Assembly: GCF_009914755.1 (NCBI RefSeq)
Contig: NC_060943.1
Source of the DNA: the human T2T-CHM13v2.0 reference genome, Homo sapiens
Strand: one strand, 5' to 3'
DNA length: 64,000 bases
In this document: positions 382 to 6,706 of the stretch, piece by piece
Layout: every line of letters starts with the position of its first letter
Numbering within the stretch: the stretch's first letter is position 1
The notes under the pieces: generated by a model
The model's database searches: none
Seen by the model: the letters and a program-made list of their open reading frames with translations, nothing else
What the model was told of the DNA's origin: nothing
Made by a program: the position numbers and the translations under genes

Positions 382-476
382 CTGATGCAGTTCCTCACAT
401 GCTACTATCAGGACATTCTTTTTTCCTCTCATTTGTAGCCAGCCATGAGTGTGGTCATACCATGAGTCATGAGTCA
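382..476 (-). pseudogene. SULT2A-like sulfotransferase pseudogene copy A, exon homologous to SULT2A1 exon 4
   Basis: Minus strand reads cctcttttcctcatctttctcacag|TG ACT CAT...CTG CAT CAG|gtaacc. It is 95 nt (phase 1 to phase 0) and translates (V)THDSWYDHTHGWLQMRGKKNVLIVACEELHQ, versus recalled SULT2A1 VLYGSWFDHIHGWMPMREEKNFLLLSYEELKQ. Lies inside ORF-track 139..567. Confidence 0.9.
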
Positions 477-1517
477 CTGTGAGAAAGATGAGGAAAAGAG
501 GTGATGGGTTTGATTGTCTGCACAGTTGCAGCCCACTGTATGCATGCCATAAGTAGTTAAGGAGCACATGGGTGAAGTGAATGGAAATCCTTTTCCCTTT
601 TTTCTCATTTGCAAGAGAAATAGAATTCTGCCCTTACTGCCTAGATACAAGGCAGCAGGTGCTGTGTGAGATCGAGTATTGAAGATAAGTTTCACCTCTA
701 CCTGTGAAGTGGATTTTCAATTATGAAGAAAATTCAGTTAGCAAATATAGGAGCTAAACTTCATTGTTCTTTTTTTTTTGAAGTCAATGACTTTGTTGTT
801 TCTATCATGAATTTAGTTGCTTTCTCTTATGCCAGAAAATGATGTAATTAATGGCTGCTAACACATGTTTTTTGCTTATCTTCTACCCACCAAGAAGGTT
901 TTTCCTCACATTTGCACTGTATTCAGATGACTGTGGCTGGAGGGGTCATGTCTCAAGGGATCCTGTTACTTGGATATTGTTGACATATAGTGTGGGGCAT
1001 CTGACACATGCACACCAGCATCTCCCCTTGATATTTTTAGTCTTCATATCAAGAGTAAACTTGCTGTTTCTCTCTGTAAATCTGGACAGTAAAATAGAAG
1101 AACTAATATTCAGGAATGGTCAGCTTGCTTTCGGGTCATACGTAATAGAAACCTATGCTGAAACATAAAAAGTGAAACATTCAAGCAGAAAAGTGCAGAG
1201 ATTGAGGGAATTCTGTTTGATTCCACTGCTCCAGCTCATTCTAAGGAGGTCGAGTTGAATTCTTATGTAGGATTCATTGAAAAAGCATAGTGTTTTCATA
1301 ATTGCCCTTTTGCTCAAATTATTTACATTTAATATTTCTTGCAACTAAAGGTTTGGCATAATTCAGTAAAAGCTATGGCTGTGGACATGATGGTGCTGAA
1401 GTGCAAATAATGAAGTGATCTGCTCAATTCCATGTAGATCATATACCCCAAGAACTTCAAATACCAAAGTGGATGCTTTTAAAAATCTTACAATAAAGAT
1501 GCCAAGTATTTTTACAT

Positions 1518-1825
1518 TTTTTTTTAATTTTTATTTTTTGAGACAGAACCGTGCTCTGTCATCCAGGCTGGAGTGCAGTGGCATGATCTTGGCTCATTGC
1601 AACCTCACTGCCTCTCAGGTTCAAGCTCTTCTCCTGCCTCAGCCTCCCAAGTAGCTGGGATTACATGTGCCCACCACCATGCACGGCTAATTTTTTTGTA
1701 TTTTTAGTAAAGACGGGGTTTCACCATGTTAGCCAGGCTGGTCTTTAACTCCTGACCTCAAGTGATCCGCCTGCCTTAGCCTCCCAAATTGCTAGGATTA
1801 CAGGTGTGAGCCACTGCACCCAGCC
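1518..1825 (-). mobile_element. Alu (AluS-type)
   Basis: Poly-T followed by the antisense Alu body. Flanked by TSD-like agatgc(c/t)aagtatttt. Absent from duplicate copy B. Confidence 0.92.
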
Positions 1826-2815
1826 AGAGATGCTAAGTATTTTTGTAACATGGAGCAGCTCTGAACACTTTGGTCAATAAGAAAATTGAGGCTCGTAGAA
1901 GTTAAACCATTCTTCTGCTGAAAATAGCTAGTAAAAGGTTGAATAATCGCTGTTTGAATGCCGACATTGGGACCTCTGAGAGGAGAGCATTTATGCAGGA
2001 ACATGCTAGATCATGGACTTTGGGAGCATGTTATGCTGCTATAGCAAAAATTGTACTAGTTAAAAATATGGTTACTCCATGAATTACAAGGTAATCTCAC
2101 AAGATGCCAGATAATTGCACAAGCTGGCAGAAAGAAAAATGATGTTTTAAATTTTTTATTTTTGGCATGATAGCCTTTAAAAATAACTTTTATGGAAGTC
2201 CACCCTTTAAAAACAATATTTTAAAAAATTGAAATACAGGTTAAATTTGAAGCTCTTTAATATAGTGATTAAAGCTGCACATGATGTTGACCATGCAGAT
2301 ATTAGTACCTTAATGCCTTCACCACACCTAACTCCCATCCTGGTTCTAAGCTGTACCAGCTTTTCTCACCTCATGCAGTTTCCTGAGTTTGTCCTTCAGC
2401 TTGGTTCCTTGGTAGCCTAGTCTACAGGTTTTTCTTTATATCTTATTTTTTTTAAGTTAACAATGGATCCTGGAGGCCACTGTGCGGTGATGTGGCAGTA
2501 TTCCCTATTCCTGTTTTAAGTTGGGTACTATTCCAGAATATTGTCAGTGGCAATTTTGGTTCTTTCTTGTTTGCTATTTCAAGTAAAGAACATTTGAATA
2601 GTTTTGTAAATCCATCTTTTTTTGTGTTTTTGCTTTTGTACTTCTTCTGTTTGATAAGGGGGAATTCTGCATGAACATGTAACTGCAGGAACGTGAGAAT
2701 TTGCAAACTTTTCCTACATAGATTTATGTCATTTTCCATCTAACCACCAATATATGAGCATGCCTGTCTATGAGAGTCTCACCACTAGGGTGATTGGAAT
2801 GATCTGAATGCTAGC

Positions 2816-3280
2816 TGTGGTAGGCAGCAGGTCCCCCAGTACACACACACCAAAGATGTCCATATCCTAATCCTCAAATCTGTGAATGTGTTACTTTTCA
2901 TAGCGCAAGTGACTTTGAAGGTGTGATTAAAGAATCTTCAGATGGGGAGATTATCTTGGCCTATCCAGCTGGAGACAGTGTAATCACAAGGGTCATTTTA
3001 AGAGGCAGGCATAAGTGGCAAAAGCAGAGAAAGAGATGTGATGACAAGAAGGATGTGGCCATGTGACGAAGTGAGGGCAGCCTCTAGAAGCTAGAAAAGG
3101 CAAGAGGTAGATCCTCTCCTGGAGCCTCAGGAATGGCAGGTAGCTAGGCCCACAGATTAATTTTAGCTCATAAGACATATTTTGGAATTCTGAACTGCAG
3201 AACATGGCAGTTTAAACAAAACTGCTTAGTTTTAACTGCTGTATTTGTGGTAATTCATCACAGCAGAGAGAAACTAATGA
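2816..3280 (+). mobile_element. MaLR LTR (MLT1D-like)
   Basis: tgtggtaggcag...aaagatgtccatatcctaatcc...gtaatcacaagggtc...cagcctctagaagctagaaaaggcaag...aaactaat, typical of MLT1. Also present in copy B. Confidence 0.8.
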
Positions 3281-3562
3281 ACCTCCTAGTGTGATAGGTG
3301 AGAAATGGTATCTCGGTGTGGTTTGAATTACACTTCTCTTATTTTGAGTATGGTAAGTTGTATTTTTAAATGGTCACAGCACTTAGAATAATTTGGAGGG
3401 ACAAAGCATGTTCACTGAGATTCTGTTGCTAACTGGAGGTACCAGAGATTTAACCAACACCTAGGTTTGGAGGGCAAAATTTGTTTAAACCATGAGACAG
3501 TAAGACCTGGACGTAGAAACTCCACCATTCTTCTAGGAACCCCTATTTTGAGTCATAGTCAC

Positions 3563-5338: not shown

Positions 5339-5643
5339 TTTTTTTTTTTTTTCCTTTTCTTGAGATGGAGTCTCTATCTGTTGCCTAGGCTGGAGTGCAG
5401 TGCCGTGATCTCGGCTCACTGCAACCTCTGCCTCCCAGGTTCAAGCGATTCTCCTGCCTCAACCTCCCGGGTAGCTGGGATTACAGGCATGTGCCACCAT
5501 GCCCTGCTAATTTTTGTATTTTTCATAGAGATGGGGTTTCATCATGTTGGCCAGGCTGGTCTCAAACTCCTGACCTCAGGTGATCTGCCCACCTTGGCCT
5601 CCCAAAGTACTGGGATTACAGGTGTGAGCCATCACACCTGGCC
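5339..5643 (-). mobile_element. Alu (AluS-type)
   Basis: Poly-T plus full antisense dimer. Confidence 0.92.
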
Positions 5644-6197
5644 TATAATATCTTGATAATACTGCTACTACCACATCACCTAAGATGCTTCAAGGGAGTT
5701 TCATACAGTTTTGATGGTTTTAATGCCATATGATTTAAACTATAATCTATGATGAGTACACATTCACATTTTATAGCACAGGGTCACTCAATGCTAGAGG
5801 TTTTATGTAGAGCTCCTGAAATGATGCATCTGAGTCCTTTCAGCTGGGAAAGACATGGTCTGAATAGGTAATATCATGGTTAGAAAAACCCAATTGGGTT
5901 TCACATGTGAGTACCAAACCTATATTTCCTCTCAAATAGAGGTACTGGCTTATAATTGAGGTGCTTCCCACATGGGCTTGTCAACATTGGGTGCCTCTGT
6001 GTTGAGGGTGCAGCCAGGATTTATAAAACTGAAGACTGAATATTCTCTGGGGCAATACCAGGCAGATTCTCTTGTATATGACATTGTAGCTTAGAACAAG
6101 ATTTTCTAATCTGCTTACTTTACTGAATCACATTTTAAGTTTGTTTCTAAAACAAAGATATTGAGGGCAGTCAGAAAAGTAGTCCACATGGACATTC

Positions 6198-6480
6198 TTT
6201 TTTTTTTTTTTTTGAGACGGAGTCTCACTCTGTTATGCAGGCTGGAGTGCAGTGGCGCAATCTCGGCTCACTGCAACCTCCGCCTTCTGGGTTCAAGCGA
6301 TTCTCCTGCCTCAGCCCACCAAGTAGCTGTGCCACCACACCCGGCTAATTTTTTTGTATTTTTAGTAGAAATGGGGTTTTACCATGCTAGCCAGGATGGT
6401 CTCGATCTCCTGACCTCGTGATCTGCACACCTCGGCCTCCCAAAGTGCTGGGATTACAGGCGTGAGCACCATGCCTGGTG
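6198..6480 (-). mobile_element. Alu (AluSc-like, small internal deletion)
   Basis: Poly-T plus antisense Alu, flanked by tggacattc direct repeats. Confidence 0.9.
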
Positions 6481-6501
6481 GACATTCCATTATTAACTCA
6501 C

Positions 6502-6706
6502 CTTGGCCTTGGAATTAATGACTTGGAGAAGACCTGAATGGGGAGGGGAGAGCAGTAGAAGCATGAGCCTTTCTGACTGTCTACATGTTCTTGCCCAGTT
6601 TTAACTTCTAGTCATGGCGAATGATCGCAGGAGAGCACAGACTGGACCCTGCTACGATCTCTCTTGGAGTGGATCAGACTGATGATCACCAACAACCAAC
6701 TCATTC
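6502..6706 (-). pseudogene. SULT2A-like pseudogene copy A, exon homologous to SULT2A1 exon 2
   Basis: Translates (G)MSWLLVIISLIHSKRDRSRVQSVLSCDHSP*LEVKTGQEHVDSQKGSCFYCSPLPIQVFSKS[fs]NSKAK|gtgagt, versus recalled [34 protein letters not shown]...SSHLPIQLFPKSFFSSKAK. Length 205 nt vs expected 209. TGA at 6612-6614, catalytic His replaced by Pro, acceptor CGG. Confidence 0.93.

What the first reader, a model, noticed from the sequence alone, without database searches (positions are those of the whole stretch)
382..6706. Hidden intron-containing SULT2A-like steroid/bile-acid sulfotransferase gene fossil inside a KRAB-ZNF cluster
Seen: three minus-strand exons in the correct order, with SULT2-type sizes and phases (205 nt [209 minus a 4-nt deletion], 127 nt, 95 nt). 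Exons 3 and 4 are still open and splice in frame to ...IIYIVRNPRDAVISSYYFW...EEYFEWFLQGHVTHDSWYDHTHGWLQMRGKKNVLIVACEELHQ. Lesions: TGG>TGA in SPW, catalytic His>Pro in the SSHLP motif, a frameshift before SKAK, and two acceptors lost (CGG, ACG). Established: the RNPRD..S 3'-phosphate-binding and SW(F/Y)DH motifs define cytosolic SULTs, and SULT2A1/SULT2B1 lie several Mb away on 19q13.3. Inference: this is an unprocessed paralogue from a lost SULT2 locus; exon 3 is 2A-like, while exon 4 has some 2B-like residues (GWLxMxGK). I do not recall it being annotated, and an intact orthologue may survive between ZNF667 and ZNF471 in other mammals.
Basis: partly seen in the sequence, partly recalled or inferred. 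Interest (0 to 1): 0.85.

Follow-up and report, generated by a model that had tools for sequence, protein, structure and literature searches.

The report
Dead SULT2A-like sulfotransferase gene remnants
The zinc-finger gene cluster at the end of human chromosome 19 holds the decayed, intron-containing remains of a second steroid/bile-acid sulfotransferase gene line that still survives intact in elephants, armadillos and bats, and pieces of it are now reused as exons of non-coding RNAs.

Summary
On the minus strand lie SULT2A-type exons 2 (6706-6502, 205 nt), 3 (3689-3563, 127 nt) and 4 (476-382, 95 nt). Exon 5 lies just outside the window (-1475..-1781), with a frameshift and a ~120-nt insertion. 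Exons 1 and 6 were not found.

It is not a lone fossil. A second exon 3 (16878-16752) sits in an old colinear duplicate block (13085-17042). A third locus 130 kb to the left keeps open exons 1-2 with intact splice sites.

All three pieces group with a "SULT2A1-like" clade sampled here in Afrotheria, Xenarthra and bats, not with the boreoeutherian SULT2A1 clade. This rests on a tree and on profile scores with leave-one-out controls. AU tests leave the date of the split open. The "2B-like" residues in exon 4 are shared with SULT2B1 and this clade, and changed in SULT2A1.

The enzyme is dead. Exon 4 is exactly an exon of lncRNA LOC105372471. The last exon of ZNF667-AS1 starts inside antisense exon 2.

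The supplied RefSeq table and six literature searches show no description of it. GENCODE and synteny in other mammals could not be checked. This is a solid but modest finding: an apparently unannotated pseudogene of a known family.

The parts
6502..6706 (-). Copy A exon 2 (205 nt). The acceptor is cgg instead of cag. It has TGA at the Trp77 position, Pro at the catalytic His99 position, a 4-nt deficit before SKAK, and an intact gt donor.
3563..3689 (-). Copy A exon 3 (127 nt), open, with the RNPRDAVIS 3'-phosphate-binding motif. The acceptor is acg instead of ag; the gt donor is intact.
382..476 (-). Copy A exon 4 (95 nt), open, with ag and gt intact. Its coordinates are identical to exon 382-476 of the predicted lncRNA LOC105372471.
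   Evidence: annotation table supplied with the finding.
1..381 (-). Start of copy A intron 4, which runs off the left end of the window. Two parts lie outside the window and cannot be entered as rows.

(a) Copy A exon 5 is at window -1475..-1781 (C19:59580219-59580525, minus strand). Its ag and gt are intact. It has a 1-nt insertion after ...EELNS and a ~120-nt insertion carrying 4 stops. The 3' end of LOC105372471 (-1573) falls inside it.

(b) Locus X is at window -132282..-129364 (C19:59449718-59452636, plus strand). Exon 1 is 130 nt of coding sequence and exon 2 is 209 nt. Both are open, all splice sites are intact, and PKSGTFW and the catalytic His are kept. No exons 3-6 follow.
   Evidence: Exon 5. 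Locus X: (PF00685 E 1.3e-14).
6707..13084 (-). Copy A intron 1 remnant. It is colinear with intron 1 of locus X: X 59450380-750 matches window 13084-12704, and X 59451686-59452429 matches window 7466-6705. Exon 1 and the first ~530 nt of the intron are missing.
13085..17042 (-). Copy B: an old colinear duplicate of copy A's stretch 587-3860 (the end of intron 2, exon 3 and most of intron 3), 74-83% identical.
16752..16878 (-). Copy B exon 3 (RNPRDIVTF...), with one TAA and one codon missing.
   Evidence: PF00685 E 2.4e-8.
6599..7873 (+). Last exon of ZNF667-AS1. Its acceptor ag (6597-6598) and its first 108 nt lie inside antisense copy A exon 2.
   Evidence: Annotation table.

Best explanation
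The region holds the decayed, unprocessed remains of a SULT2A-type hydroxysteroid/bile-salt sulfotransferase gene line. This line is distinct from the line that gave human SULT2A1. Its nearest intact relatives are the "SULT2A1-like" genes of Afrotheria, Xenarthra and bats, here called the beta clade.

Shown:
- Three old genomic duplicates survive in part. Copy A has exons 2-5, copy B has exon 3 with its flanks, and locus X, 130 kb away on the other strand, has exons 1-2.
- Copy A cannot make an enzyme. It has no exon 1 or exon 6, two lost acceptors, a nonsense codon, two frameshifts, a ~120-nt insertion and a Pro in place of the catalytic His.

Inferred:
- Copies B and A were neighbouring genes, and a deletion running from B's intron 3 to A's intron 1 fused them.
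- The line became dispensable in the ancestors of primates and decayed neutrally.

What the DNA does today is non-coding. Exon 4, with its own splice sites, is an exon of the lncRNA LOC105372471. The last exon of ZNF667-AS1 begins at an acceptor inside antisense exon 2.
For: Family and exon structure.

Unprocessed origin: the intron positions and phases equal those of SULT2A1 as rebuilt from the genome (209/127/95/178 nt). Intron sequence is shared between the copies.

Clade:
- Quick tree of 80 rows: a clade of 31 rows (SH-aLRT 96) holds 27 proteins of Afrotheria, Xenarthra and bats plus copy A, copy B, locus X and the Pygathrix model of locus X. A clade of 41 rows (SH-aLRT 100) holds human SULT2A1 and the other boreoeutherian SULT2A1 proteins.
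- Careful tree of 51 rows: support 92/88 and 100/99 for the two clades.
- Profile scores, beta minus alpha: +43.7 bits (copy A), +14.4 (locus X), +2.9 (copy B). In leave-one-out controls on the same columns, true beta proteins scored positive in 27 of 27, 26 of 27 and 27 of 27 cases. True alpha proteins scored positive in 0 of 41 in all three sets.
- Identity of copy A: 49% to human SULT2A1 (98 of 199), 41% to SULT2B1 (81 of 196), and median 58% (maximum 62%) to the 27 beta proteins.

Age: Jukes-Cantor distances between the copies are 0.19-0.32.

Reuse: the annotation table gives the lncRNA exons. Processed copies of ZNF667-AS1 on C11 and C3 end exactly at 6597/6599.
Against: The AU test does not reject copy A as sister to the SULT2A1 clade (p 0.10). 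It also does not reject a single clade of all boreoeutherian sequences (p 0.23). So the beta clade may not be a natural group, and the split may date only to early Boreoeutheria.

Copy B's profile margin (+2.9 bits) lies just below the range of true beta proteins (3.2-12.9).

The protein sample was drawn by likeness to locus X and to the elephant protein. Only the best 120 of 898 hits were listed, so the taxon range of the beta clade is a lower bound.

Synteny in other mammals was not testable. LOC105372471 is a predicted model, and its fourth exon lies outside the table I was given.
Confidence: 0.85

Rival explanations
1. The duplication is younger. SULT2A1 (alpha) and the fossil line arose by a duplication in early Boreoeutheria, and SULT2A1 then evolved fast. 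The beta group is then only the unchanged ancestral form. On this view elephants and armadillos never had two lines.
For: The AU tests do not reject it (p 0.10 and 0.23). The alpha stem is long (0.25-0.26). No afrotherian or xenarthran protein fell in alpha among the rows used.
Against: The best trees place the bat "like" proteins and the fossils with Afrotheria and Xenarthra, with support of 96 (quick tree) and 92/88 (careful tree).
Confidence: 0.25
2. Copy B is not the rest of a second gene. It is a piece of copy A (the end of intron 2, exon 3 and intron 3) that was duplicated and inserted into copy A's own intron 1.
For: The copy B block abuts copy A's intron 1 directly at 13084/13085. No other exon of a gene B was found.
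Against: Exon 1 and the first ~530 nt of intron 1 should then lie just beyond 17042, and nothing was found there by tblastn or nhmmer. The elephant, tenrec and armadillo proteins of this clade come in several copies per genome, some on the same contig, so tandem genes are plausible.
Confidence: 0.3
3. It is a recent segmental or transposed copy of part of SULT2A1, or a processed pseudogene.
For: HMMER and tblastn extend the exon 3 match upstream into a stretch that resembles the end of exon 2.
Against: That stretch is the pyrimidine-rich end of the intron and is shared by copies A and B. The real exon 2 lies 2.8 kb upstream with its own donor. Identity to human SULT2A1 is only 49%. The introns are present.
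Confidence: 0.02
4. Part of it still codes. The open exons 1-2 of locus X would serve as 5' coding exons of a chimaeric transcript with the KRAB zinc-finger gene 15 kb downstream, as in the Pygathrix gene model P0002.
For: Both exons are open and all four splice sites are intact. P0002 joins them in frame to a KRAB domain. Its KRAB exons map downstream on the same strand in human.
Against: P0002 is an automatic model. In human the frame upstream of the KRAB match shows a stop two codons before VTFQDV. Human and Pygathrix differ at about 11% of 113 residues, which I judge (no test was run) to be about what unconstrained sequence would show at that distance. A third of a SULT fold has no known function.
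Confidence: 0.05

Closest known systems
Human SULT2A1 (hydroxysteroid/bile-salt sulfotransferase, 19q13.33)
   Same: Same family and subfamily. The intron positions and phases are identical and the exon sizes are 209/127/95 nt. It is the best solved-structure match for exons 2, 3 and 4.
   Different: Only 49% identical over 199 aligned residues. The fossils lack the changes shared by boreoeutherian SULT2A1, for example GWLQMRGK against GWMPMREE in exon 4. The fossil is broken and incomplete, and lies 8.9 Mb away.
"Sulfotransferase 2A1-like" proteins of elephant (P0003), manatee, tenrec, armadillo and phyllostomid/vespertilionid bats
   Same: Nearest relatives by tree, by profile score and by identity. 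Examples are DIRASVE.IS in exon 5 and GWLQMRGK..EELHQ in exon 4.
   Different: Those are full-length open proteins of 284-287 residues. The human copies are fragments with disabling lesions. Their genomic setting is unknown to me.
Human SULT pseudogenes with HGNC names (SULT1C2P1, SULT1D1P, SULT6B2P; names recalled, not checked here)
   Same: The same kind of object: a decayed member of the cytosolic SULT family in the human genome.
   Different: None of them that I recall is of the SULT2 family or lies in the 19q13.43 zinc-finger cluster. Six literature searches found no description of one.

Membership tests
Cytosolic sulfotransferase (Pfam PF00685 Sulfotransfer_1) | Significant match to the family profile | tested here: met
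   Copy A exon 3 scores 47.9 bits and the 164-aa open frame holding exon 4 scores 18.3 bits, below the 22-bit cut-off. Locus X exon 2 scores 54.7 bits and copy B exon 3 scores 34.1 bits. The whole-genome scan found these places.
Cytosolic sulfotransferase (functional enzyme) | 5'-phosphosulfate-binding loop PKSGTxW (motif recalled) | tested here: not met
   Copy A has no exon 1 and reads ..GMSW (Thr to Met). Locus X keeps PKSGTFW.
Cytosolic sulfotransferase (functional enzyme) | Catalytic histidine (His99 of SULT2A1; role recalled, position counted from the alignment) | tested here: not met
   Copy A has Pro (SPLPIQ). Locus X keeps His (TSHLPIQ).
Cytosolic sulfotransferase (functional enzyme) | 3'-phosphate-binding RNPRD..S motif | tested here: met
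   Copy A reads RNPRDAVIS and copy B reads RNPRDIVTF.
Cytosolic sulfotransferase (functional enzyme) | C-terminal RKGxxGDWKxxFT loop and dimer motif (exon 6; motif recalled) | tested here: not met
   No exon 6 was found within 20 kb downstream, by tblastn with 16 C-terminal peptides and by a motif scan. The only hit, 9 residues long, is on the wrong strand.
Cytosolic sulfotransferase (functional enzyme) | Complete open reading frame with usable splice sites | tested here: not met
   There are one TGA, two frameshifts, a ~120-nt insertion with 4 stops, and acceptors cgg and acg.
SULT2A subfamily | Closer to SULT2A than to SULT2B or SULT1 | tested here: met
   E-values against solved structures rank SULT2A1 first for every exon that matched. 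The tree puts the fossils inside the SULT2A group, with SULT2B1 and the reptile sequences outside it.
Beta ("SULT2A1-like") clade of Afrotheria, Xenarthra and bats | Groups with that clade rather than with boreoeutherian SULT2A1 | tested here: inconclusive
   The trees and the profile scores with controls say yes. The AU tests do not reject the alternatives (p 0.10 and 0.23).
Unprocessed (duplicated or unitary) pseudogene | Introns kept at the parental positions, plus disabling lesions | tested here: met
Orthologue of the intact genes by position | Same neighbours (ZNF667/ZNF471) in elephant, armadillo or bat | not testable with these tools
   No non-human mammalian genome is held. Only contig lengths are given for the proteins.

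The most novel reading that the evidence does not exclude
Placental mammals began with two SULT2A lines. The ancestral-looking one sat in what became the 19q13.43 KRAB zinc-finger cluster as a small tandem array. It was lost in primates only piecemeal: the older ZNF667-AS1 retrocopy still shows an intact exon 2 acceptor and an open frame. Its splice sites seeded the exons of the lncRNAs ZNF667-AS1 (MORT) and LOC105372471. The still-open exons 1-2 of locus X may also be kept as the 5' end of a SULT-KRAB chimaeric transcript.
Probability: 0.1. Interest if true: 0.55.

Novelty: new member of a known kind. Interest (0 to 1): 0.38.

Why it matters
Humans are usually said to have one SULT2A gene. 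This shows that a second SULT2A line was lost, and that it is still intact in elephants, armadillos and bats. That bears on species differences in steroid and bile-acid sulfation, and on how the "2A1-like" genes of those animals should be named.

It also gives a clean example of dead coding exons passing their splice sites to lncRNAs. Unannotated SULT-like exons can mislead gene predictors, as in the Pygathrix SULT-KRAB model.

Tried and rejected
- Exon 6 and exon 1 of copy A. tblastn with SULT2A1 and four beta proteins at E up to 5, a motif scan, 16 C-terminal peptides, and nhmmer with locus X exon 1 and intron 1 found nothing on the right strand.
- Exons 3-6 of locus X. None was found in the 110 kb that follow it.
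- Fixed diagnostic residues between the two clades. There were 0 columns at 90% and 3 at 80%, too few to use. Profile scores replaced this test.
- A partly processed origin, suggested by the match running upstream of exon 3. Rejected: that stretch is the intron's pyrimidine tract and is shared by copies A and B.
- SULT-like hits on C3 and C11. They are not further SULT genes. They are processed copies of ZNF667-AS1 that carry antisense exon 2.
- A search for gene models that contain copy A exon 3. It found one protein among 2 candidates, a golden mole beta protein, and no primate model.
- Earlier findings of this scan were not open to the session.
- Literature searches gave no paper on a SULT2A pseudogene here. 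I saw only listings and abstract starts, plus four passages of PMC7078458.
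Full report
**What is there.** On the minus strand of the window lie three exons of a cytosolic sulfotransferase, with the sizes and phases of SULT2A1. To compare, I rebuilt human SULT2A1 from the window's own genome: 285 residues, with the coding part of exon 1 at 136 nt and exons 2-5 at 209, 127, 95 and 178 nt. 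The fossil exons are as follows.
- Exon 2 is 6706-6502 (205 nt).
- Exon 3 is 3689-3563 (127 nt).
- Exon 4 is 476-382 (95 nt).

Against solved structures:
- Exon 3 matches SULT2A1 chains at E 8.4e-15 and SULT2B1 at 4.7e-5.
- Exon 4 matches at 5e-7 and 2e-6.
- Exon 2, read through its stop with X, matches at 1.4e-7.
- The first half of exon 2 alone reaches only E 0.03, and the second half alone finds no SULT.
- Pfam PF00685 matches exon 3 at 1.5e-12.

**Lesions.**
- TGA stands at the position of Trp77.
- Pro stands at the position of His99 (SPLPIQ).
- There is a 4-nt deficit before SKAK.
- The acceptors read cgg and acg.

Exons 3 and 4 are open and join in frame.

- Exon 5 lies 1.86 kb further on, outside the window (-1475 to -1781), with its ag and gt intact. 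It carries a 1-nt insertion after ...EELNS and a ~120-nt insertion with four stops.
- Exon 6 was not found within 20 kb, and exon 1 was not found at all.
- A whole-genome scan with the Pfam profile and with an elephant protein showed two more pieces nearby.
- Copy B is an exon 3 at 16878-16752, with one TAA and one codon missing. It sits in a block (13085-17042) that is colinear with copy A's 587-3860 at 74-83% identity.
- Locus X lies at C19:59449718-59452636 on the plus strand, 130 kb to the left. It has exon 1 and exon 2, both open, with all splice sites, the PKSGTFW loop and the catalytic His intact. It has nothing after about 300 nt of intron 2.

Intron sequence is shared among the copies.
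- Intron 1 of locus X matches window 13084-12704 and 7466-6705.
- Intron 2 of locus X matches window 6197-5894.

So copy A's intron 1 runs from 13084 down to 6707 and abuts the copy B block directly. I infer two neighbouring genes fused by a deletion from B's intron 3 to A's intron 1. An insertion of a duplicated exon 3 segment into intron 1 is the alternative. Jukes-Cantor distances between the copies are 0.19-0.32, so the duplicates are old.

**What line it belongs to.** Protein searches found full-length relatives in many mammals (77 proteins; 898, of which the best 120 were listed). The closest are named "sulfotransferase 2A1-like" and come from elephant, manatee, tenrecs, golden mole, aardvark, armadillo, anteater, sloth and several bats. 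They share with the fossil strings that SULT2A1 lacks, such as DIRASVE.IS in exon 5 and GWLQMRGK...EELHQ in exon 4.

Tree evidence:
- In a quick tree of 80 rows that I chose from the two hit lists, a clade of 31 rows (SH-aLRT 96) holds all 27 of those proteins plus copy A, copy B, locus X and a Pygathrix model of locus X.
- A clade of 41 rows (SH-aLRT 100) holds human SULT2A1 and the other boreoeutherian SULT2A1 proteins, including a second set of bat proteins.
- In that quick tree two long rows (Choloepus2 and Macrotis) were joined, and the tool warned about it. Both were left out of the next tree.
- A careful tree of 51 rows gave support of 92/88 and 100/99 for the two clades.

Profile evidence, from profiles built from the two clades without the fossils:

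| Piece | Beta minus alpha (bits) | True beta positive (leave-one-out) | True alpha positive |
|---|---|---|---|
| Copy A | +43.7 | 27 of 27 | 0 of 41 |
| Locus X | +14.4 | 26 of 27 | 0 of 41 |
| Copy B | +2.9 | 27 of 27 | 0 of 41 |

Copy B's margin lies just under the lowest true beta value (3.2).

Against a firm reading:
- The AU test does not reject copy A as sister of the SULT2A1 clade (p 0.10).
- It does not reject one clade of all boreoeutherian sequences (p 0.23).

What is safe is this. The fossils lack the changes shared by all sampled boreoeutherian SULT2A1 proteins, so they parted from that line before its crown. Whether the split predates placental mammals stays open.

The simplest reading is that they are ancestral states.

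**What it does now.** As an enzyme gene it is dead. The DNA is reused in two ways.
- Exon 4 has the same coordinates as exon 382-476 of the predicted lncRNA LOC105372471. That RNA's 3' end (-1573) lies inside exon 5 (annotation table). One paper lists this RNA as uncharacterised and more highly expressed in breast cancer lines (passages of PMC7078458).
- The last exon of ZNF667-AS1 (6599-7873, plus strand) starts at an ag (6597-6598) inside antisense exon 2.

This explains the SULT-like hits on other chromosomes.
- C11:14684765-14686178 is a processed copy of ZNF667-AS1. The last exon is joined directly to window -9183..-9314, at 93-95% identity, with a T run at its end.
- C3:135601403-135603518 is an older, rearranged copy at 89-93% identity.

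These copies act as dated snapshots of exon 2 (alignment A1).
- The older C3 copy still has the acceptor cag and TGG for Trp.
- The C11 copy has tgg at the acceptor and still has TGG for Trp.
- Copy A has cgg at the acceptor and TGA.

So the acceptor was lost between the two retrocopy events, and the nonsense codon came after the second. The Thr-to-Met change in the PKSGT loop is already in both copies.

**Known or new.** The RefSeq table supplied with the finding has no pseudogene here. Six full-text searches found no description. I saw listings and abstract starts only, and the GENCODE tracks could not be consulted. The object is an ordinary kind: an unprocessed pseudogene of a known family. 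The loss of a distinct SULT2A line in humans and the lncRNA reuse are modest additions.

Noticed in passing
L043 (C11:14684765-14686178) and L042 (C3:135601403-135603518): These are processed retrocopies of the lncRNA ZNF667-AS1. On C11 the last exon (window 6599-7873, 94.8% identical) is joined directly to window -9183..-9314, with a T run at its end. The C3 copy is older (89-93%) and rearranged, with an inverted piece (window 7539-7137).
   Followed up: partly
L042, C3:135601190-135601408 (and a partial repeat at 135601997-135602092): A complete SULT exon 2 in sense orientation lies next to the C3 retrocopy. It is only 74-76% identical to copy A and to locus X, yet it shares copy A's derived residues (HSKRD, CFY, FSKS). 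Its source is unexplained. It may derive from the lost exon 2 of copy B.
   Followed up: partly
C19:59467548-59477508, plus strand (loci L030, L031): KRAB zinc-finger exons lie 15 kb downstream of locus X on the same strand. The Pygathrix gene model P0002 splices SULT exons 1-2 in frame onto them. In human the frame just before the KRAB match (QG*VTFQDV) shows a stop. SULT exon 2 ends, and KRAB-A exons begin, in phase 0. The KRAB-A and KRAB-B exons of this cluster (127 and 96 nt in the supplied table) have nearly the sizes of SULT exons 3 and 4 (127 and 95 nt).
   Followed up: partly
window -1470..-1475 (L021): The exon 5 acceptor sits in the palindrome CCTAGG, which offers an ag on both strands. 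The C3 retrocopy joins window -1475..-1316 (plus strand) directly to 6599. This suggests a ZNF667-AS1 isoform with an exon that starts at the mirror-image acceptor.
   Followed up: no
G000:C14:28615283-28616043 and C3:139549310-139549807: These are intronless PF00685 matches with several stops (E 6e-48 and 1e-16). They look like processed SULT pseudogenes and are unrelated to this locus.
   Followed up: no
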